Shown here: positions 1-7,878 of the stretch, one piece after another
Layout: every line of letters begins with the position of its first letter
How positions within the stretch are numbered: the stretch's first letter is position 1
Source: a virus
Lineage: Duplodnaviria > Heunggongvirae > Uroviricota > Caudoviricetes
Virus record (IMG/VR): IMGVR_UViG_3300025898_000004
Location: 1-30,451 of that record
Strand: one strand, 5' to 3'
Length of the DNA stretch: 30,451 bases
The notes under the pieces: model-generated
What the model was told of the DNA's origin: nothing
The model's database searches: none
The model's input: only the letters and a program-made list of their open reading frames with translations
Translations under genes and position numbers: made by a program

Positions 1-15
1 TTGTATCCCCCTCTT

Positions 16-209
16 TTGGGGACCCGGAACTCATTCACACGAAGCAAGATCGGGGCAGGCCCGTACGCGACCCGTTTCAGCTATCCCGTGGCCGTCTAGA
101 ACAGCCTTGGGAATCAACGCCTATCCGCTCGAAGACGTGGCTGCCGCATCGTAACGGACCCTTTGGGTATCGCAGGGTCACCGGGCATTCTGTCTTAGGC
201 GGTCCCCAA
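16..209 (-). ncRNA. Putative ~195 nt structured RNA of unknown family
   Basis: Closed by TTGGGGACC (16-24) / GGTCCCCAA (201-209); no credible ORF; lies directly downstream of tRNA-Ser. Confidence 0.35.
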
Positions 210-211
210 CG

Positions 212-292
212 CAGAGGGTAAAGGAATCGAACCCTCAGGTATTACCCTGGCCCGGACTTCGAAACCGGTTTGCCGCCACGGCGCTACCCTCC
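212..292 (-). tRNA. tRNA-Ser(CGA), long variable arm
   Basis: Acceptor GGAGGGT/ACCCTCT, G73, anticodon loop TTCGAAG, variable hairpin CAGG/CCTG, T-loop TTCGATT. Confidence 0.8.
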
Positions 293-354
293 ATTGGTGT
301 GCCCCCACAACCGCCACAGTCAGTGAGGGCACTACGGACCTATAGGAGGTCCAG

Positions 355-425
355 AGCGGGTACGGGGAATCGAACCCCGGCCTGTTGCTTGGAAGGCACT
401 AGTTCTACCATTAAACTATACCCGC
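355..425 (-). tRNA. tRNA-Gly(TCC)
   Basis: GCGGGTA acceptor, loop CTTCCAA, T-loop TTCGATT, U73; anticodon stem only 3 bp. Confidence 0.88.
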
Positions 426-436
426 ATTGCCTTGCG

Positions 437-508
437 CTGACCTAGTAGGATTCGAACCTACATCTAACTCGTTAACAGCGAGTCGCTTTGCCGTTAAGCT
501 ATAGGCCA
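437..508 (-). tRNA. tRNA-Asn(GTT)
   Basis: Canonical cloverleaf, ACTCG-CTGTTAA-CGAGT. Confidence 0.93.
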
Positions 509-515
509 CCGAACA

Positions 516-935
516 CTAACTCACAACATCAGTGTAGCCGATTTCCTTGGCGCGATACAACCGCTTCGCCTTAACGCAAAGAGAACACTTACATTTCGTT
601 TCCTGGTAACAACGCATCGTACCGTGTTGTTGCGGTGACGTGTTCTTGTTGTATCCGCCGCCAGCTTCCCGATTTGCTACCGTCTTTGCCCTGTGGCAAT
701 CGTGACAAAGGAGCTGACACTTCTTCAACTCGACTAGGATTGAATCCCATGAACGATCCAGGTCCTTGCCGCTCATCCTGAAACTCGCACTGCCGGGGGC
801 CTTGTGATCAAACTCCAGGTTGTTCCTCGAACCGCAAGTCACACACTTGCCGCCCAGCATCTCCACCAGGATGGATCGACGTTCGGTACGTCGGGCTGCC
901 ATGTACGACCGCATGTATTCATTGCTACTCTTCAT
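516..935 (-). CDS. HNH endonuclease (free-standing, within tRNA array)
   Basis: CVTCG...LEFDH...CQLLCHDCHRAKT motif; C-terminal HGT..CY..C.C..C motif. Confidence 0.88.
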   Translation of the reverse strand: MKSSNEYMRSYMAARRTERRSILVEMLGGKCVTCGSRNNLEFDHKAPGSASFRMSGKDLDRSWDSILVELKKCQLLCHDCHRAKTVANREAGGGYNKNTSPQQHGTMRCYQETKCKCSLCVKAKRLYRAKEIGYTDVVS

Positions 936-1078
936 GCGGTAATCTTAACATAGTCGCTCTGCCACATGCAAGGGTGGAAGCCCGATAGACGTTCTAGACC
1001 TATCACGCCCGCGTCCTGTGTGCGCACACTTAGGGGTCGAACTCCGGCACTCGGGCCAACATGCCGGATGGTATAACG

Positions 1079-1174
1079 AGAGGCGGCTTACCATTAGCCG
1101 ACAGCTAGTCACCCCGTGGCGTTTGTTTTACCACGTGCTTTCACCAGCTGGATTCGAACCAACATTACCCCTCT
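1079..1174 (-). ncRNA. Permuted tRNA-like element (T arm precedes D arm), no Y-type stem
   Basis: AGAGG-ggtaat-GTTGG TTCGAAT CCAGC ... GGCT AATGGTA AGCC-g-CCTCT; terminal AGAGG/CCTCT pair at anticodon-stem position. Confidence 0.5.
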
Positions 1175-1176
1175 AG

Positions 1177-1252
1177 TGGCAGCGGTGGGATTTGAACCCA
1201 CGATCTCCGACTTATGAGGACGGCGAGGACGACCGAACTCCTCTACGCTGCT
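1177..1252 (-). tRNA. tRNA-Met(CAT), initiator-like
   Basis: Loop CTCATAA, A1:C72 mismatch, T-loop TTCAAAT. Confidence 0.85.
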
Positions 1253-1257
1253 CTAGA

Positions 1258-1313
1258 TGGCACACGGGCAGTGGTGCTTGCGCCCCTAAAGGGTACTGAC
1301 ATGCCCGTGTGCC
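1258..1313 (-). ncRNA. Small hairpin RNA, paralog of 1881-1949
   Basis: GGCACACGGG/CCCGTGTGCC stem followed by ATCTAG, same flank as 1881-1949 element. Confidence 0.4.
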
Positions 1314-1415
1314 GTGGCCGCAGTGTTTAAGGTCAGGCGGCCATTCACCTATTGATTCCTTCAGTACAGTCGGGAGAAACTTGGGGGGATCATCCGACAA
1401 ACGAAGGAATAAGTA

Positions 1416-1565
1416 TGACACCGAGAACCAGTCGATACAGGTCTTTCAAGTAGGACCGCCGCTCTACCAACTGAGCTACAGGCGCAGGGAGAGCGCCCGC
1501 CAGGAATCGAACCTGGGCCAGCGGTTTGGATTCCAGAAGTAACCCACATCTTCGCATCGGTGTCA
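1416..1565 (-). ncRNA. Y RNA/YrlA-like RNA A (T arm-closed acceptor stem-D arm)
   Basis: TGACACCGA/TCGGTGTCA terminal stem; GATGCGAAG..GGGTTACTTC; T arm CCAGG TTCGATT CCTGG; closed stem CGGGCGC/GCGCCTG; D arm GCTC AGTTGGTA GAGC; TGGTTCTC. Confidence 0.75.
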
Positions 1566-1571
1566 GCTAGC

Positions 1572-1642
1572 GGTTCCGAGAACCAAATAACCCAGGCTAT
1601 TTTCATTGCGATTGAAGTATCCCGGGTCTTCGCATCGGAACC
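1572..1642 (-). ncRNA. Minimal Y RNA-like RNA B (no tRNA-like domain)
   Basis: GGTTCCGA/TCGGAACC stem; GATGCGAAG-ACCC-GGGATACTTC; TGGTTCTC; AU-rich loop. Confidence 0.65.
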
Positions 1643-1644
1643 AG

Positions 1645-1716
1645 TCGGGGAGGGGAGAATCGAACTCCCGGCATCCTGTACCCAAAACAGGCACTCTACC
1701 ACTGAGCTACGCCCCG
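1645..1716 (-). tRNA. tRNA-Pro(TGG)
   Basis: CGGGGCG acceptor, CCTGT-TTTGGGT-ACAGG. Confidence 0.93.
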
Positions 1717-1866
1717 GTCACCAATATCATGCCGGCTCAGCCGGCGTTTCTTGCCCACGAACCGTAGGTACCGGAACGGATCCCGGTCCCGTCGGCCGTT
1801 GTCCTTGAACTTGTGCGCCTTGCACATGGCGCACCCTTTCCACCGCCTGTGTGGGGAGTGGGCCAT
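1696..1866 (-). CDS. Small basic hypothetical protein (56 aa, MAHSPHRRWKGCAMCKAHKF...)
   Basis: AGGAG RBS; CxxCxxH motif; below the ORF-track cutoff; 3' end overlaps tRNA-Pro. Confidence 0.6.
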   Translation of the reverse strand: MAHSPHRRWKGCAMCKAHKFKDNGRRDRDPFRYLRFVGKKRRLSRHDIGDRGVAQW

Positions 1867-1880
1867 TGTTATCTCCTAGA

Positions 1881-1949
1881 TGGTGCACACGGTCCCCGGT
1901 GCGCTTTTCCGGGTGGCTGGACGTCCACTGTTAGCAACCTACCGTGTGC
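1881..1949 (-). ncRNA. tRNA-like three-way junction ending in ACCA
   Basis: 9-bp GCACACGGT/ACCGTGTGC stem + ACCA; two internal 5-bp hairpins. Confidence 0.45.
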
Positions 1950-1952
1950 CCG

Positions 1953-2024
1953 CGCTCGCGACGGGGATCGAACCCGCGACCTTCGCCCTGACAAGGCGTT
2001 GCGCTACCACTGCGCCACGCAAGC
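1953..2024 (-). tRNA. tRNA-Asp(GTC)
   Basis: Cloverleaf, loop TTGTCAG, G73. Confidence 0.9.
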
Positions 2025-2182
2025 ATGATCGGCGGGGCAGCGCGCCTCTCAGAGACAGCCGCCGTGAAGCGGGTTACCATCCCCGCCGGTACCAACGGAT
2101 ACCGTGCCGACTTCGCACACCCGGACCCCGTCGGCTAGGGATAACTGTCCGGTCAGACATGCGGTCCGTTGGTTGACTGAAG

Positions 2183-2343
2183 ACCGGAAAGAGGTGGCCC
2201 GAGAACCAATCGGCACAGGACACGTAGTGCTCTGCCAATTGAGCTACCGGCCCATAGGTGGACCGGATAGGATTCGAACCTACAACCACTCGATTAATAG
2301 TCGAAGTAACCCACGCCTTCGCATCGGGTCACCTCTTTCCGGT
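2183..2343 (-). ncRNA. Y RNA/YrlA-like RNA C containing a complete circularly permuted tRNA-Asn-like cloverleaf (anticodon ATT)
   Basis: ~20-bp terminal stem ACCGGAAAGAGGTG../..CACCTCTTTCCGGT; conserved motif; order AC arm, T arm, acceptor 3' CCGGTCC, loop ACCTAT, acceptor 5' GGGCCGG, D arm. Confidence 0.8.
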
Positions 2344-2345
2344 GA

Positions 2346-2469
2346 TCCCCGCGAGAACCAAGTAAGCCAGGTTGGGCAGTGCATTTTCGCGGATTTGAAC
2401 CACGATCTTACTTCACTTATGGAGTGAAATAATTTATCCGAAGTAACCCGACTCTTCGCATCGCGGAGA
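2346..2469 (-). ncRNA. Y RNA-like RNA D carrying AC arm (CAT) and T arm only
   Basis: TCTCCGCGA/TCGCGGGGA stem; conserved motif; TTCAC-TCCATAA-GTGAA; CGTGG TTCAAAT CCGCG. Confidence 0.68.
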
Positions 2470-2480
2470 GTAAAGCTTGG

Positions 2481-2620
2481 CCTCACGAGAACCAATCGAA
2501 TCAGGTTAGTAGACCCGGGACTCGAACCCGGAACCTCTCCCCTCATTGGGGAGCGCTCTACCGATTGAGCTAGTCCGCTGAGTTGGTAGCGGAAGTAACC
2601 CAATCCTTCGCATCGTGAGG
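2481..2620 (-). ncRNA. Y RNA-like RNA E enclosing a normal-order tRNA-like cloverleaf
   Basis: CCTCACGA/TCGTGAGG stem; conserved motif; internal AGCGGAC..GCTC AATCGGTA GAGC..CTCCC CAATGAG GGGAG..CCGGG TTCGAGT CCCGG GTCTACT. Confidence 0.72.
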
Positions 2621-2723
2621 TGTTCAAGTTTGGAATTGTCAAAGAAAGTCGCCGCACTCAAGGGCATTCAGTTGACGGGACGCGGAACGTGTTCTGCCAC
2701 AAAAGGGCCTGTCCGCATCCCCG

Positions 2724-2797
2724 TTGCGCAACCTGGAATTGAACCAGGGTCCGCCTCATTATCAGTGAGGTGCTCCAACCGACTGAGCTATTGCGCA
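2724..2797 (-). tRNA. tRNA-Ile(GAT)
   Basis: Canonical cloverleaf, CCTCA-CTGATAA-TGAGG. Confidence 0.93.
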
Positions 2798-2942
2798 TCG
2801 TGTATGTAATTGTAACCGGGCGGTCAAGGGGATTCCATGGATCCCTTTGACGACCCGAGGGAGACTTTTCGGGCACAGCAGCCTAAATCCCAATGCACTT
2901 CCAGCCGGACCAACCGGTGATCAACTCCGATCGGGTACCACG

Positions 2943-3015
2943 TGGGAAGGGACGGTTTCGAACCGCCGGCCTCTCCCTTTTCAGGGGAGCGCTCTACCAA
3001 CTGAGCTACCGACCC
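2943..3015 (-). tRNA. tRNA-Phe(GAA)
   Basis: CTCCC-CTGAAAA-GGGAG; two mismatches in acceptor stem. Confidence 0.87.
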
Positions 3016-3025
3016 ATGTTGTGCG

Positions 3026-3098
3026 TGAACCCGGCAGGTCTCGAACCTGCGACCCCCAACTTAAGAGGATGGTGCTCTACCAGCTGAGCTACGAGTCC
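3026..3098 (-). tRNA. tRNA-Lys(CTT)
   Basis: Loop CTCTTAA; U30:U40 mismatch in anticodon stem. Confidence 0.9.
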
Positions 3099-3112
3099 AT
3101 GTAATTGTGACG

Positions 3113-3184
3113 CTTCCCGTCTAGGATTCGAACCTAGATCCCCGGAACCAAAATCCAGTCTCTTGCCGATTAGAGCAACGGGAA
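3113..3184 (-). tRNA. tRNA-Gln(TTG)
   Basis: TTCCCGT/ACGGGAA acceptor, loop TTTTGGT. Confidence 0.9.
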
Positions 3185-3188
3185 CCGG

Positions 3189-3262
3189 TGCCCCCGGTAG
3201 GATTCGAACCCACGACCCGCCGGGTAAAAGCCGGCTGCTGCTTCCATCTGAGCTACGAAGGC
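3189..3262 (-). tRNA. tRNA-Lys(TTT)
   Basis: GCCGG-CTTTTAC-CCGGC, canonical T arm. Confidence 0.9.
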
Positions 3263-3366
3263 ATTCAGTTGTGAAAGACGGGGTGGTCCGATGGTTTTCA
3301 CCACCTACCCGAGACAGACGTACCCCTAGCGTGGGCAGTCGTACCCGCCTCCTCGGTCTCTCCGCG

Positions 3367-3438
3367 CTGCCCACCTAGGACTCGAACCTAGATTACCTGA
3401 ATCAGAGTCAGGATTCCTGCCGTTTGAAAGAGCGGGCA
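3367..3438 (-). tRNA. tRNA-Gln(CTG)
   Basis: CCTGA-CTCTGAT-TCAGG. Confidence 0.9.
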
Positions 3439-3514
3439 TTAAGTTGTATCCGGCGTTCAGGGGCTAGCAACCCTGAACTTTATGCGTGCGCAACGGCAGC
3501 CGGATCTACCAACG

Positions 3515-3589
3515 AGCCCCCAGTAGGATTCGAACCCACGACCCTCCGCTTACAAGGCGGACGCTCTGGCCAGACTGAGCTATAAGGGC
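3515..3589 (-). tRNA. tRNA-Thr(TGT)
   Basis: TCCGC-CTTGTAA-GCGGA. Confidence 0.93.
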
Positions 3590-3605
3590 ATTATTCAGTT
3601 AAAAG

Positions 3606-3676
3606 GACGACCGACGGGAGTTGAACCCGCATCGCTGTAGCCATACCAGTGCACTACCTATTATGCTACGGCCGTC
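3606..3676 (-). tRNA. tRNA-His-like with shortened/degenerate anticodon arm
   Basis: 8-bp acceptor GACGGCCG/CGGTCGTC (G-1:C73 His hallmark), intact D and T arms, 15-nt AC arm CTGGTATGGCTACAG. Confidence 0.55.
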
Positions 3677-3717
3677 ACCCCGAGGGGCAAGTCATTTTGT
3701 TGAAGTTGTGTCGTGCG

Positions 3718-3790
3718 TGGACCTGACAGGACTTGAACCCGCCACCCCCTGTGTGCAAAACAGGTGCTCTACCCGATGAGCTACAGGCCC
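3718..3790 (-). tRNA. tRNA-Ala(TGC)
   Basis: Loop TTTGCAC; G3:U70 identity pair present. Confidence 0.93.
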
Positions 3791-3991
3791 AGAGATACGG
3801 TACAGGCGCAGGAGTTTCAACGCGGAAAGGTAGCACGAGAAAACCGCTCCACACCTTCGCTCCGCCCCGGGACTAACCTCGATGTGTGCTTCCCCTTCCG
3901 GTTTGGTGACGTTCACGCCCGTATCGCATTAAGTTGTGGGTGAGGCCAACACGGTGGGTGTCGCGCATGACAACACCGCGCTGACCTCTCG

Positions 3992-4064
3992 TAGGGATTG
4001 AGGGAGTCGAACCCCCGACCCGCTCTTTGTAAGAGAGCCGCTCGTCCCGCTGAGCTAAATCCCT
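3992..4064 (-). tRNA. tRNA-Val(TAC)
   Basis: GCTCT-CTTACAA-AGAGC. Confidence 0.93.
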
Positions 4065-4083
4065 ATATGAAATCCCTATAAGG

Positions 4084-4157
4084 CTTCACTGAGAACCGGA
4101 GAGCACCAGGTGTCATTTCGCCAATTGAAGTAACCCAGCGCGTTCGCATCAGTGAAG
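4084..4157 (-). ncRNA. Minimal Y RNA-like RNA F (first element after the RNA-island promoter)
   Basis: CTTCACTGA/TCAGTGAAG stem; GATGCGAAC-GCGCT-GGGTTACTTC; CGGTTCTC. Confidence 0.62.
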
Positions 4158-4221
4158 TTGTCGTTCGTGTCCGCCTTGCTGGTGTCTGTCCGGGGGAGTG
4201 CGTCCCGTCCTGACACGAAGA

Positions 4222-4250
4222 ACATTACCCGGCCGATCCTGGGGTGTCAA
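4222..4250 (-). promoter_or_regulatory. Housekeeping-sigma-type promoter driving the tRNA/Y RNA island
   Basis: TTGACA-N17-TAATGT. Confidence 0.8.
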
Positions 4251-4411
4251 CCCTTCTTCGGATTTTTCTTCCCACCAGCCTGTTCCTGCTGGTCACGGAA
4301 GGTTTTCCACGCCCGATCCAGGTGCGCCGTCGGATCCGGCAACAACCACTCCGCCACCACGTCCACCACCCGGGACACCCACCCCAACCTCTTCAGCTCC
4401 GCCACCATCAT
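4247..4411 (-). CDS. Hypothetical protein (54 aa, MMVAELKRLGW...)
   Basis: GGGAGG RBS before ATG; stop codon lies inside the -35 box. Confidence 0.5.
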   Translation of the reverse strand: MMVAELKRLGWVSRVVDVVAEWLLPDPTAHLDRAWKTFRDQQEQAGGKKNPKKG

Positions 4412-4571
4412 CACCCTCCCTGTCCAGCCGATTGACGGCCGCCCACACAGCCCGCACGTCCTCATCATCGCGGAAATCCCGCAACGCCTCGCCCACCTCC
4501 GCGCCGGACAGATCCCGCTTGGCCAGCACCCGGCACACCGCGATGAGACAGTCCACCAGCCCCACCGTCAT
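4293..4571 (-). CDS. Hypothetical protein (MTVGLVDCL...)
   Basis: GGAGG RBS; C-terminal part overlaps the next ORF, so the end is uncertain. Confidence 0.4.
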   Translation of the reverse strand: MTVGLVDCLIAVCRVLAKRDLSGAEVGEALRDFRDDEDVRAVWAAVNRLDREGDDGGGAEEVGVGVPGGGRGGGVVVAGSDGAPGSGVENLP

Positions 4572-4602
4572 ACCCTCCGGCGTGCGACAGTCCGTCGACG
4601 TC

Positions 4603-5617: not shown

Positions 5618-7878
5618 AAATCTTCCAGATCAAATTCCTTCAACAGCGCCCAGTCCTGTTCCTTCGGCTTGATCACGTGCCCACGCGCCGGGTTCCACGG
5701 TGCCGGCTTGAACTCGTCGATCGGCAACACCACCGCTGCGCCCGCACGGCCGGAACGATCTACTTCCGGTGCCGGCACCGGAGTTTCATCGATACCGAAC
5801 GCGGACGGATCCAAACCACGCGACCGCAAGAACGCAGCCGTCACCGAGCTACGCTCCATCAGACCCTGCTGAACATCCACGTCCACAGTGCCGGGAACGA
5901 TCAGGTGAATAAACACGACCGGCCGTGTCTGGCCGGGCCGGTCCTGCCGCTTCAACGCCTGGTCGTAATCCCCCAGCGAATGACCCTTCGAATACCAAAC
6001 CCCGTACCGCGCCCGGGTGAGATCCACACCCGTGCCGCCCGACTGAATCTGAACCCCCACGACATCCGCAGACTCCGACATCTCCCCACGCGAAGACAAA
6101 CCGTCGGCCCGGCGACCCGAAATCTCCGCGTACCGAAGCCCCGCATCCTCAACCACCTTTTTAATGGCGTCCAGGTCGCTTTTGAACTGGCAATACACGA
6201 TCACCGGTTCCGGGCCGCCGGCACGGTCGGGAACACAGCCGACATCGGACAGGATCTCCGCCAACGCGTCGGCCTTCGCCGTCGACACGCGATAGGACTG
6301 CCGAATCGTCTTACCGCGCTCATCCTCTTCTCCGTCATCGGGTAGCGTGCCGCCGGTCAACTGCATCAACCGCATGATCCGGGCGATCACGTTACGCGGC
6401 ATCAACACCGCGTCATCTTCGTCGATTTCTTTTCCCTTGGCGAATTCGCGCAAATCGGCGAACATGCGATCGTCCAGGTCCCGGTATGCTTTCCACGCGG
6501 CCGGCTCCAACTCGACCTCACGCGTGACATGTTCCACGCCCGGCAATTTTAGGTCGATCGTCGGCCGGTACATGATGGAATGCACCTTGTCAGAGAACTC
6601 CTCGGCAAACGCAGGTTTGATCACCGACGGGAATTCTGTGGTCTTCATGTAGAAGTCGCCCGCCTTGGAGCGGGTCTTGATTTGCGCCTCCTGCATTTCG
6701 ATGTACTTCGCCTTGAACGGCGTCCACACGTGCCCGAAAATGTTCGGGTCCAACGCCCGGTATACACCGAAAATGTCCCAAGGGTGTTGCGGCATGGGGG
6801 TTCCGGACAGGCCGATACGACGCTTCGAGAAATCCACCCACTTGCCGGCGACTTTCGAGCCCTTCCCGGTCGGCGACTTCAGGCGGTGAATCTCGTCATA
6901 AATGACCATGTCGAGTTTCTGAAGCGGAACCCATGACGCGATCGGCTCCCGCGACAACATCTCGTAGTTGAACACCGCCACATGCACCGGTGCGCCACAC
7001 GTGCAGTCGAACAGGCACTCTTCGGCCTGGTGAAGCCGCTCCGCCACCTGAAGATCCTGAGGCAGCGCGCCCTTCCGTTTCGCTGGCCGCTTCCCATCCA
7101 CGATGTGCCACGGCCGCGCCGACCACTTCGCGACCTCACGCGGCCACACACCCCGAACCTTGTTCGGGCACACGATCAGCACCTGGGCCGCGTCCACCGC
7201 GTTCACGGTGGCGACGGTGGACGCGGTTTTTCCGCCACCCATCGGGACCGCGATCATGGAAGCGGACACGGCGGAGGAGTACGCCAGCGCGCGGCGCTGG
7301 TGCTCCCACAGCGGCGACAGGACCAGGTGGCCGATGTCGGAGTCCGGGGCCGGGTTGTCCGGGTTGAGCACGTCGCGATGCGCACTGGCCGCCTGGTCAG
7401 CCAGCGCCAGCACATACGGCGTTACCTCCGGATCGTGCCCGGACAGCAGGGCCAGCACCCCGGCCGCGCCGACTGGTGTCGGAGAGAGGTGCCACTCCTT
7501 GTGACGATTGTCGAACTCCGCGTGCAGACCCAGTTTCAGGTTCTCGTTCACGCCGAACGGGGCGTGCCGGATAGCGATGCGCCCGTCACCCCGGATCAGC
7601 ACCTCCGGCCGCTGACCGGAGGTGACCGTCACGGGCGGCCGGGCCTCCACGCGCGGGCCGGGAAGCGCCACGCCCTGGGCGGCCAGCCGCGCCCGGTGCC
7701 GGTGCAGCACGCGCCACGCCAGGGCGGCCTGAAACCGGTTCAGTTCGCGGCCGACACGAACGACGGCAGCCAGCTCCGCCAGGGTGCCCAACTCACTGTC
7801 CGGGATCAGCTTCTGGTCCACGGCCGCCAGTAGCGCGGTTTCCGTGGCGCGTACGGGGTTGTCCGTTGTTTCGGTCAT
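5614..7878 (-). CDS. SNF2-family (SF2) helicase/ATPase with N-terminal extension
   Basis: LWEHQ, PMGGGKT (Walker A), YDEIHRLK (Walker B), LSGTP (III), QSGGTGVDLT (V), QALKRQDRPGQ (VI). Confidence 0.93.
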   Translation of the reverse strand: MTETTDNPVRATETALLAAVDQKLIPDSELGTLAELAAVVRVGRELNRFQAALAWRVLHRHRARLAAQGVALPGPRVEARPPVTVTSGQRPEVLIRGDGRIAIRHAPFGVNENLKLGLHAEFDNRHKEWHLSPTPVGAAGVLALLSGHDPEVTPYVLALADQAASAHRDVLNPDNPAPDSDIGHLVLSPLWEHQRRALAYSSAVSASMIAVPMGGGKTASTVATVNAVDAAQVLIVCPNKVRGVWPREVAKWSARPWHIVDGKRPAKRKGALPQDLQVAERLHQAEECLFDCTCGAPVHVAVFNYEMLSREPIASWVPLQKLDMVIYDEIHRLKSPTGKGSKVAGKWVDFSKRRIGLSGTPMPQHPWDIFGVYRALDPNIFGHVWTPFKAKYIEMQEAQIKTRSKAGDFYMKTTEFPSVIKPAFAEEFSDKVHSIMYRPTIDLKLPGVEHVTREVELEPAAWKAYRDLDDRMFADLREFAKGKEIDEDDAVLMPRNVIARIMRLMQLTGGTLPDDGEEDERGKTIRQSYRVSTAKADALAEILSDVGCVPDRAGGPEPVIVYCQFKSDLDAIKKVVEDAGLRYAEISGRRADGLSSRGEMSESADVVGVQIQSGGTGVDLTRARYGVWYSKGHSLGDYDQALKRQDRPGQTRPVVFIHLIVPGTVDVDVQQGLMERSSVTAAFLRSRGLDPSAFGIDETPVPAPEVDRSGRAGAAVVLPIDEFKPAPWNPARGHVIKPKEQDWALLKEFDLEDL

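What the first reader, a model, noticed from the sequence alone, without database searches (positions are those of the whole stretch)
2481..2620. Y-type stem enclosing a non-permuted, Phe-like tRNA body with a non-decoding anticodon loop
Seen: inside the conserved handle is a normal-order cloverleaf. Its D/AC/variable sequence (GAGCGCTCCCC..GGGGAGAGG) closely resembles the tRNA-Phe at 2943-3015, but the loop is CAATGAG (A33, no U-turn U) and the acceptor has a mismatch. Inference: a tRNA gene was captured into a Y RNA scaffold and its anticodon loop decayed or diverged. This may be an evolutionary intermediate showing how YrlA-type mimics arise, or a decoy.
Basis: partly seen in the sequence, partly recalled or inferred. 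Interest (0 to 1): 0.7.

Follow-up and report, generated by a model that had tools for sequence, protein, structure and literature searches.

The report
Phage Y RNA carrying near-complete tRNA mimic
This 140-base element is one of six partner RNAs (Y RNAs) of a phage Ro60 protein, in a rare layout that keeps the D, anticodon and T arms of a tRNA in natural order but closes the acceptor end with an upstream strand and an ACCA loop, so it is a tRNA look-alike and not a working tRNA.

Summary
On the minus strand, 2620->2481 is a Y-type stem around a body that ARAGORN and Rfam call a tRNA (50.5 bits). Its anticodon loop is CAAUGAG (A33) and its acceptor has a C3-A70 mismatch. The same handle closes all six elements in this tRNA array, and the phage encodes a Ro60 (TROVE) protein.

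The element is not a one-off capture. Two other uncultured actinophages (IMG/VR records of 103 kb and 171 kb) carry full-length homologues beside Ro60 genes only 39-42% identical to this one. Across the three, the Y stem, D, anticodon and T helices covary.

The canonical acceptor stem does not hold (65% of cells paired). Its 5' strand pairs with an upstream strand in a hairpin whose loop starts ACCA (100% paired; 10-12 kcal/mol better).

The body is therefore effectively a tRNA permuted at position 65/66 with a closed, CCA-mimicking acceptor end. This differs from YrlA (T-acceptor-D order, no anticodon arm). It shares arm order with Deinococcus Yrn1 but fails both Rfam models.

None of the three anticodon loops has U33 and they are not conserved, so the RNA does not decode. 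I class it as a new variant of a known kind. Earlier notes of this scan report other Ro60-linked handles grafted onto whole tRNAs in unrelated phages; I did not test those.

The parts
2481..2620 (-). Whole Y RNA-like element (Y6), 140 nt
   Evidence: Model R1 gives 180 bits here. Homologues score 100.5 bits (L219) and 57.9 bits (L008). Fold z = -3.24.
2613..2620 (-). Outer stem, 5' strand (CCUCACGA)
   Evidence: Pairs 8/8 with 2481-2488. Five of its 8 pairs show changes on both sides across the three homologues.
2481..2488 (-). Outer stem, 3' strand (UCGUGAGG)
2606..2612 (-). UGCGAAG box, the likely Ro60-contact motif. It holds the CGAAG core of the published GNCGAAN0-1G motif.
   Evidence: Six of these seven bases, UGCGAA, are invariant in all six elements of the window; the seventh is G in five and C in the element at 4085-4156. 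The motif is described in PMC4201824.
2596..2606 (-). Upper Y stem, 5' strand (GGAUUGGGUUA), followed by CU
   Evidence: Pairs with 2498-2508. Five pairs show changes on both sides.
2498..2508 (-). Upper Y stem, 3' strand (UAACCUGAUUC)
2489..2497 (-). 3' internal loop GAUUGG plus UUC, the conserved 3' handle
2574..2593 (-). Acceptor-mimic hairpin: UCCGCU (2588-2593), loop ACCAACUC (2580-2587, ACCA at 2584-2587), AGCGGA (2574-2579)
   Evidence: Pair probabilities 0.88-0.999. 100% of cells paired with 2 compensatory pairs across three phages. Stem-plus-ACCA-loop hairpins occur in seven further distinct phage Y elements.
2555..2570 (-). D arm (GCUC AAUCGGUA GAGC), with A14, A15, G18 and G19
   Evidence: The Levitt pair is A15:U48 here and G15:C48 in the G001 homologue.
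2537..2553 (-). Anticodon-like arm: stem CUCCC/GGGAG, loop CAAUGAG at 2542-2548 with A33
   Evidence: The homologues' loops are AAGGUAA and ACUCCGUU.
2532..2536 (-). Variable region AGGUU
2515..2531 (-). T arm (CCGGG UUCGAGU CCCGG)
2508..2514 (-). Downstream strand GUCUACU. It could pair 6/7 with 2573-2579 as a canonical acceptor 3' strand. It is probably a relic or an alternative partner.
   Evidence: Pair probability ~0. Only 65% of cells paired across homologues. The proximal 4 pairs are 82% paired.
4222..4250 (-). Phage promoter (TTGACA-17-TAATGT) at the head of the Y RNA/tRNA array
   Evidence: No promoter-like site lies inside 1-4600.
1417..2468 (-). Span that holds four of the five sister Y elements: 2347-2468, 2195-2331, 1572-1642 and 1417-1564. 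The fifth is at 4085-4156. The span also contains tRNA-Asp (1952-2024), part of tRNA-Pro (1644-1716) and spacers, which are not part of the feature.

Best explanation
Window 2620->2481 (minus strand) encodes a Y RNA, a partner RNA of the phage's Ro60 (TROVE + vWA) protein.

Expression (inferred): it is made as part of one long transcript that starts at the promoter at 4250-4222. That transcript carries six Y RNAs interleaved with tRNAs and probably runs on to the Ro60 gene.

Ro60 binding (inferred): the paired 5' and 3' ends, with the UGCGAAG / GAUUGGUUC box, form the Ro60-binding stem.

tRNA-like module (shown by sequence and covariation): the other end is a near-complete tRNA mimic with D arm, anticodon-like arm, variable region and T arm in natural order, and with the nucleotides for the tRNA elbow intact.

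Acceptor end (shown by conservation and energy): the first 3-6 nucleotides of the 'tRNA' pair with a strand that lies upstream, directly after the Y stem. That strand is followed by ACCA, which sits where a tRNA's discriminator and CCA end would sit. The acceptor is thus a closed stem-loop, as in YrlA. The Y stem enters between tRNA positions 65 and 66 instead of replacing the anticodon stem.

No decoding: the anticodon-like loop lacks U33 and is not conserved.

Function (inferred by analogy with Yrn1 and YrlA): the module presents an L-shaped tRNA look-alike to a tRNA-binding factor, or protects the RNA, while Ro60 holds the stem. Which factor is unknown.
For: Ro60 gene and context:
- The same 94-kb phage record has a TROVE hit of 61 bits on the same strand.
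- All 33 tRNA calls and all six Y elements are on that strand.

Shared handle:
- It covaries among the six elements of the window.

Homologues beside Ro60:
- L219 4601-4739 scores 100.5 bits. It is separated from the Ro60 start only by a second 114-nt Y element.
- L008 2616-2753 scores 57.9 bits and lies about 430 nt upstream of Ro60.

Structure with the ACCA hairpin:
- 95.2% of cells paired.
- 19 pairs with changes on both sides.
- 0 of 500 shuffles reach this; slid controls give at most 5 such pairs.

Canonical acceptor helix:
- Only 65% of cells paired.
- RNAfold prefers the hairpin by 12.5 kcal/mol here and 10 kcal/mol in G001, with acceptor pair probability ~0.

Stem-plus-ACCA-loop hairpins directly after GGUUACUU:
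- They occur in seven further distinct phage Y elements, with five further distinct stem sequences.

Elbow and anticodon loop:
- The Levitt pair covaries, A15:U48 here and G15:C48 in G001.
- The anticodon loops are CAAUGAG, AAGGUAA and ACUCCGUU; none has U33.
- A real tRNA-His(GUG) is present elsewhere in the genome.

Published precedent:
- Y RNAs mimic tRNA and are co-transcribed with tRNAs.
- Yrn1 has the D-like -> anticodon-like -> T order (PMC4201824).
Against: - There is no expression or Ro60-binding data.
- In this record the Ro60 gene is about 6 kb away, and only if the record's two ends are joined.
- Only three homologues exist, and alignment A5 was fitted to the model's structure, so pair counts lean towards it.
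- The proximal four canonical acceptor pairs are still 82% paired. A mixed or switching acceptor cannot be excluded.
- Here the canonical stem is 6/7 intact, and Rfam aligns the full tRNA model.
- The element fails the curated Rfam Y RNA models: no YrlA hit at 2481-2620, and Deinococcus_Y_RNA scores 17.7 bits against a gathering score of 80.
- Nearest-neighbour energies ignore tRNA tertiary stacking.
Confidence: 0.7

Rival explanations
1. The closed acceptor is opened after transcription. RNase P cuts 5' of A at 2579. The four loop bases after ACCA are trimmed. The result is a two-piece Y RNA whose tRNA-like module has a real 3'-ACCA end and could even be charged while tethered to Ro60.
For: - M. 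smegmatis YrlA, which has a 7-bp closed acceptor, is cut by RNase P and receives CCA in vivo (PMC4201824; bioRxiv 10.1101/312249).
- Here ACCA is encoded exactly after the acceptor-mimic strand in all three homologues.
- The G001 hairpin is 7 bp.
- Only 2 of the phage's 31 genuine tRNAs end in CCA.
Against: - The stem is only 6 bp here and in L008.
- Most YrlA RNAs are not cleaved (PMC4201824).
- Neither phage encodes a CCA-adding enzyme or RtcB.
- There are no processing data.
Confidence: 0.15
2. One reading: a whole tRNA gene (Phe-like) was recently captured between the two halves of a Y stem and is decaying. On this view it is an evolutionary intermediate with no selected function of its own.
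For: - A 15-nt run plus an 8-nt run are identical to the phage's own tRNA-Phe, the best 5'-half match among 691 tRNAs.
- The downstream acceptor strand is still 6/7 complementary.
- tRNA-likeness falls from 50.5 bits here to 40.2 bits in G001 and below threshold in L008.
Against: - Full-length homologues exist in phages with 39-42% identical Ro60.
- All helices and the Levitt pair covary.
- The ACCA hairpin is conserved.
- The T arm is generic and not diagnostic.
- The chance of the extra 7-nt match over about 600 comparisons is about 0.04, which is weak.
Confidence: 0.1
3. It is a decoy or sponge for host tRNA-targeting enzymes, such as the anticodon nucleases of anti-phage defence. The Y stem and Ro60 would only stabilise it.
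For: - It is a complete tRNA shape including an anticodon arm, which YrlA lacks.
- It is phage-encoded within a large tRNA array.
- Earlier notes of this scan propose the same for anticodon-arm displays in other phages (untested).
Against: - The anticodon loops differ in sequence and length among the three homologues and match no real tRNA loop. A nuclease that reads a specific anticodon would not be baited.
- No defence or nuclease gene is linked.
Confidence: 0.08
4. It is an ordinary decoding tRNA, and its flanks pair with each other by chance.
For: ARAGORN and Rfam both call it a tRNA.
Against: - It has A33 and an AUG anticodon.
- A real tRNA-His(GUG) is present elsewhere in the genome.
- The flanks are the conserved Y handle shared by six elements.
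- The homologues lose the acceptor stem.
Confidence: 0.03

Closest known systems
YrlA (Rfam RF02553; Salmonella, M. smegmatis, mycobacteriophages; Chen et al. 2014, PMC4201824; crystal structure in Wang et al. 2018, bioRxiv 10.1101/312249)
   Same: - Ro60-linked, encoded on the same strand as the Ro60 gene.
- A long stem formed by the 5' and 3' ends, with a CGAAG-type box.
- A tRNA-like module with D and T arms and elbow nucleotides.
- An acceptor closed by a loop.
- YrlA-type sisters sit in the same array (2195-2331 and 1417-1564).
   Different: - The arm order here is acceptor hairpin - D - anticodon arm - variable - T, not T - acceptor - D.
- The Y stem joins at tRNA position 65/66 instead of replacing the anticodon stem.
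- A full anticodon-like stem-loop is present.
- The acceptor loop begins with ACCA.
- The RF02553 model gives no hit at 2481-2620.
Deinococcus radiodurans Yrn1 (Rfam RF01053)
   Same: - The tRNA-like pieces are in D-like -> anticodon-like -> T order relative to the 5' end (PMC4201824).
- The GGUUACUUC box and the T arm GUUCCGGGUUCGA.UCCCGG are nearly identical in the Rfam consensus.
- A CCAAC stretch follows the box in both.
- Yrn1 is co-transcribed with a tRNA.
   Different: - Yrn1 has no full D arm, no variable region and a 6-nt anticodon-like loop.
- It scores only 17.7 bits against a gathering score of 80, so membership is not shown.
- I could not fetch Yrn1 itself for a direct alignment.
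Circularly permuted tRNA genes (Cyanidioschyzon merolae and others) and two-piece tmRNA
   Same: The 3' acceptor strand, with CCA-like bases, is encoded upstream of the 5' acceptor strand. The natural ends are joined by a short linker.
   Different: - Those are processed into working tRNAs or tmRNA.
- Here only the acceptor 3' strand is displaced, the loop lacks U33, and no processing is known.

Membership tests
Y RNA (Ro60/Rsr partner RNAs, broad class) | Encoded near a Ro60/TROVE gene and on the same strand | tested here: met
   The TROVE ORF is at G000 about 89141-91045, minus strand. The element is on the minus strand of the same tRNA/Y array. The homologues lie directly upstream of Ro60 in G001 and G002.
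Y RNA (Ro60/Rsr partner RNAs, broad class) | Long stem formed by the 5' and 3' ends, carrying the conserved Ro60-contact box (GNCGAAN0-1G or GGUCCGA type) | tested here: met
   Stems pair 8/8 and covary. The box here is UGCGAAG: the CGAAG core is present, but the upstream G is displaced by one position relative to the published motif.
Y RNA (Ro60/Rsr partner RNAs, broad class) | Bound and stabilised by Ro60 | not testable with these tools
   Needs a pull-down or Northern blot.
YrlA (RF02553) | Reaches the Rfam gathering score (69 bits) | tested here: not met
   No YrlA match overlaps 2481-2620 at E <= 10. The sister elements reach 39 and 34 bits.
YrlA (RF02553) | T arm, then closed acceptor, then D arm, with the Y stem in place of the anticodon stem and no anticodon loop | tested here: not met
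   The order here is acceptor hairpin - D - anticodon arm - V - T.
Deinococcus Yrn1 (RF01053) | Reaches the Rfam gathering score (80 bits) | tested here: not met
   17.7 bits.
Deinococcus Yrn1 (RF01053) | D-like, anticodon-like and T stem-loops in that order inside the Y stem | tested here: met
   The order in Yrn1 is taken from PMC4201824.
tRNA (RF00005) | Reaches the Rfam gathering score (29 bits) | tested here: met
   50.5 bits here. 40.2 bits over model positions 4-67 only in G001. No RF00005 (tRNA) match in L008; the only tRNA-clan match there is tRNA-Sec at 26.3 bits against a gathering score of 47.
tRNA (RF00005) | 7-nt anticodon loop with U33 and a usable anticodon | tested here: not met
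   CAAUGAG with A33. The homologues have A33 and C33.
tRNA (RF00005) | 7-bp acceptor stem formed by the 5' and 3' ends and kept among homologues | tested here: not met
   65% of cells paired, with 4 of 7 pairs broken in at least one sequence. Pair probability ~0.

The most novel reading that the evidence does not exclude
These phages make a Ro60-tethered, circularly permuted tRNA. The ACCA loop is opened by RNase P and trimmed to give a genuine CCA end. Ro60 would then carry a split, possibly chargeable tRNA-like molecule into translation or tRNA-surveillance machinery. That role has not been described for any Y RNA.
Probability: 0.12. Interest if true: 0.8.

Novelty: new variant of a known kind. 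Interest (0 to 1): 0.55.

Why it matters
Two tRNA-mimicking Y RNA designs are on record, YrlA and Yrn1, and Chen et al. 2014 concluded that they arose separately.

This element shows a third layout built on the same Ro60-binding handle as YrlA-type sisters in the same array. It has the arm order of Yrn1, a full anticodon arm, and an encoded ACCA at a closed acceptor end.

- It suggests that the handle and the tRNA-like modules recombine freely.
- It gives a concrete RNA for testing whether the tRNA shape, the CCA mimic or the anticodon arm is what the unknown partner reads.
- It explains why tRNA finders call spurious tRNAs such as His(AUG) and Thr(GGU) beside phage Ro60 genes.

Tried and rejected
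Searches that gave nothing useful:
- Megablast of 2100-2700 against GenBank phages found no match. Blastn found only a YrlA-type relative of the neighbouring element and tRNA T and D arms.
- Pattern scans gave only chance hits apart from L069 and L008: IMG/VR and the one metagenome scan.
- Two genome-contig scans for D. radiodurans Yrn1, using the published probe and a shorter core, found nothing. No direct alignment with Yrn1 was possible.
- Nine more GenBank actinophages with Ro60 hold only YrlA-type, T-arm-only or short Y elements.
- RtcB and CCA-adding enzyme families are absent from both phages.
- ORFs overlapping the element on either strand have no Pfam match.

Ideas dropped:
- I first counted five compensatory acceptor pairs between this element and the G001 homologue. 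They were in ARAGORN's shifted register, not in homologous columns.
- A T arm borrowed from tRNA-Leu(CAA): that T arm is generic.
- A pseudoknot between the ACCA loop and the UUGG of the 3' internal loop: L008 has no UGG there.

My first filter regex for the 5' box was wrong. I corrected it from then on.

Full report
**What is there.** The window is the first 30.4 kb of a 94,451-bp IMG/VR phage record. Its first 4.2 kb and last 3.2 kb carry 33 tRNA calls, all on the minus strand. A 634-codon ORF with TROVE and vWA domains, a Ro60/Rsr homologue, follows on the same strand.

Six minus-strand elements share GAUGCGAA-N5-6-GGG(U/A)UACUUC at the 5' side and GGUUCUC at the 3' side. In all six:
- the outer 8-bp stem pairs 7-8 of 8;
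- an upper 8-bp stem pairs 8 of 8, with different sequences in each element;
- GAA/UUC is invariant, and a 6-7-nt 3' internal loop is present.

The handle resembles the Ro60-binding stem of Deinococcus Yrn1 (GGUUACUUC box). It also holds the CGAAG core of the motif described by Chen et al. 2014 (PMC4201824).

A phage-type promoter (TTGACA-17-TAATGT) sits at 4250-4222, just upstream of the first element, and none lies inside the array. The Y RNAs and tRNAs are therefore probably one transcript, as published for Yrn2-tRNA-Asp-Yrn1 (PMC4201824). Co-transcription here is an inference.

**The observation.** The element at 2620->2481 is 140 nt.
- ARAGORN calls 2579->2507 tRNA-His(AUG).
- Rfam's tRNA model gives 50.5 bits over the whole model.
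- The loop is CAAUGAG with A33.
- The acceptor AGCGGAC/GUCUACU has one C-A mismatch and one G-U pair.
- The fold is better than all 200 shuffles (z = -3.24).

The D-arm and anticodon-stem stretch shares a 15-nt and an 8-nt run with the phage's tRNA-Phe. That is the longest 5'-half match among 691 tRNAs I held. Overall the body is closest to the phage's short tRNA-Leu(CAA), at 74% against 67-68% for Phe. Its T arm is the common T arm of phage tRNAs and Y modules.

**Relatives.** No close DNA relative exists in GenBank phages. Scanning IMG/VR for Y handles and checking for tRNA calls next to them turned up a second case, L069. This is record G001, 102,929 bp, with terminal repeats. There the element (L219 4601-4739) ends a 19-tRNA array. 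A second Y element and then the Ro60 gene follow it.

A covariance model built from the window's element with the hairpin structure (R1) found the following among 99 loci:

| Element | Bits |
|---|---|
| Window 2481-2620 | 180 |
| G001 (L219 4601-4739) | 100.5 |
| L008 2616-2753 (G002, 171 kb) | 57.9 (E about 1e-10) |
| All other Y types | 42 or less |

The L008 element is the second of five Y elements just upstream of Ro60. The Ro60 proteins of the other two phages are only 42% (G001) and 39% (L008) identical to this phage's Ro60. Each of the three phages also has a YrlA-type element.

A signature pattern scan of all IMG/VR gave only these records. Nine further GenBank actinophages with Ro60 have none. 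The layout is conserved but rare.

**Which structure.** RNAfold does not form the canonical acceptor stem. The 5' acceptor strand pairs with UCCGCU directly after the Y stem, giving a hairpin with loop ACCAACUC.
- This beats the cloverleaf by 12.5 kcal/mol here and by 10 kcal/mol in G001.
- Acceptor pair probabilities are about 0.

On the three-sequence alignment A5:

| Structure tested | Result |
|---|---|
| Hairpin structure, whole | 95.2% of cells paired; 19 pairs changed on both sides; 0 of 500 shuffles; at most 5 such pairs when partners are slid |
| Hairpin, D, anticodon and T helices | 100% paired |
| Canonical acceptor helix | 65% paired; 4 of 7 pairs broken somewhere |
| Mixed model: distal 3 pairs with the upstream strand, proximal 4 with the downstream strand | Proximal helix 82% paired, so not excluded |

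In every conserved model, nucleotides 1-3 of the 'tRNA' pair upstream, next to ACCA. The caveats are that there are only three sequences and that the alignment was fitted to the model.

Independent support comes from other phage Y RNAs. Seven further distinct elements, including one in Streptomyces phage BRock, have a hairpin right after GGUUACUU whose loop begins ACCA. Together with the two found first, that makes seven distinct stem sequences.

The elbow is under selection. U8, A14, G18, G19 and the T loop UUCGA are kept in the window's element and in G001; in L008 U8, a GG pair and the T loop remain, but its shortened D loop lacks A14. The Levitt pair switches from A15:U48 to G15:C48.

The anticodon-like loops are CAAUGAG, AAGGUAA and ACUCCGUU. 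None has U33, and neither sequence nor length is conserved. Rfam's tRNA score falls to 40.2 bits (model positions 4-67) in G001. In L008 there is no tRNA-model match, only a tRNA-Sec match at 26.3 bits against a gathering score of 47.

**Reading.** The element is a Y RNA whose effector end is a near-complete tRNA mimic.
- Topologically it is a tRNA opened between positions 65 and 66, where the Y stem enters.
- Its natural ends are joined by a 4-5-nt linker after an encoded discriminator-plus-CCA (ACCA).
- This differs from YrlA, where the Y stem replaces the anticodon stem and the order is T - acceptor - D (PMC4201824; bioRxiv 10.1101/312249).
- It shares arm order with Yrn1, which lacks a full D arm and variable region.
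- It fails both Rfam Y RNA models.

Binding to Ro60, co-transcription and any partner of the tRNA-like end are inferred, not shown.

The encoded ACCA invites the idea that RNase P opens the loop, as happens in M. smegmatis YrlA. I rate that at about 0.12-0.15.

The downstream strand (6/7 complementary here, decayed in the relatives) and the Phe-like segment fit descent from, or conversion by, a whole tRNA. The family predates the divergence of these phages, so it is not a fresh capture.

**Context from the scan.** Earlier notes agree on the six-element array, the Ro60 gene and the short tRNA-Leu genes of this genome. Notes on unrelated phages describe other Ro60-linked handles grafted onto whole or partial tRNAs. 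I did not test those.

Noticed in passing
L239 3769-3843 (GiJojo tRNA-Arg cct); L242 3774-3847 (Alone3 tRNA-Ser gct); L241 3695-3766 (VanLee tRNA-Arg tct): tRNAs annotated just upstream of Ro-like genes in GenBank actinophages begin with the Y RNA 5' box or overlap it. They look like YrlA-type Y modules miscalled as tRNAs.
   Followed up: partly
window 2260-2330: ARAGORN's tRNA-Asn(AUU) is the V hairpin, T arm and part of the acceptor loop of the YrlA-type element at 2195-2331, not a tRNA.
   Followed up: partly
L018 about 6215-6300 minus (BRock); L009, L013, L014, L016, L177, L182: Many phage Y RNAs have a hairpin directly after GGUUACUU whose loop begins ACCA. In several it is followed at once by a T arm, giving an acceptor-plus-T minihelix look-alike.
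   Followed up: partly
G000 91470-92357 (outside the window): Three tRNA-Leu calls of 75-77 nt lack a long variable arm. The CAA one is the closest overall match to the body studied here.
   Followed up: no
window 1176-1252 and G000 94337-94413: Identical tRNA-Met(CAU) copies lie near both ends of the record. The neighbouring Gly and Asn pairs are only 72-75% alike, so this is not a terminal repeat.
   Followed up: no
L020 9340-9990: An array of at least four Y-like elements upstream of a Ro60 gene uses a different 5' box (CCGACGCC ... GGUUACUUC). This shows that the handle varies between phage groups.
   Followed up: no
L144 4566-4672: A Y element with small hairpin, anticodon-like hairpin and T arm inside the stem. 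The three-stem-loop layout resembles Yrn1.
   Followed up: no
window 4222-29653: Twenty sites match TTGACA-N17-TAnnnT, 18 of them on the minus strand, against 0.05 expected. The first one heads the Y RNA/tRNA array.
   Followed up: no
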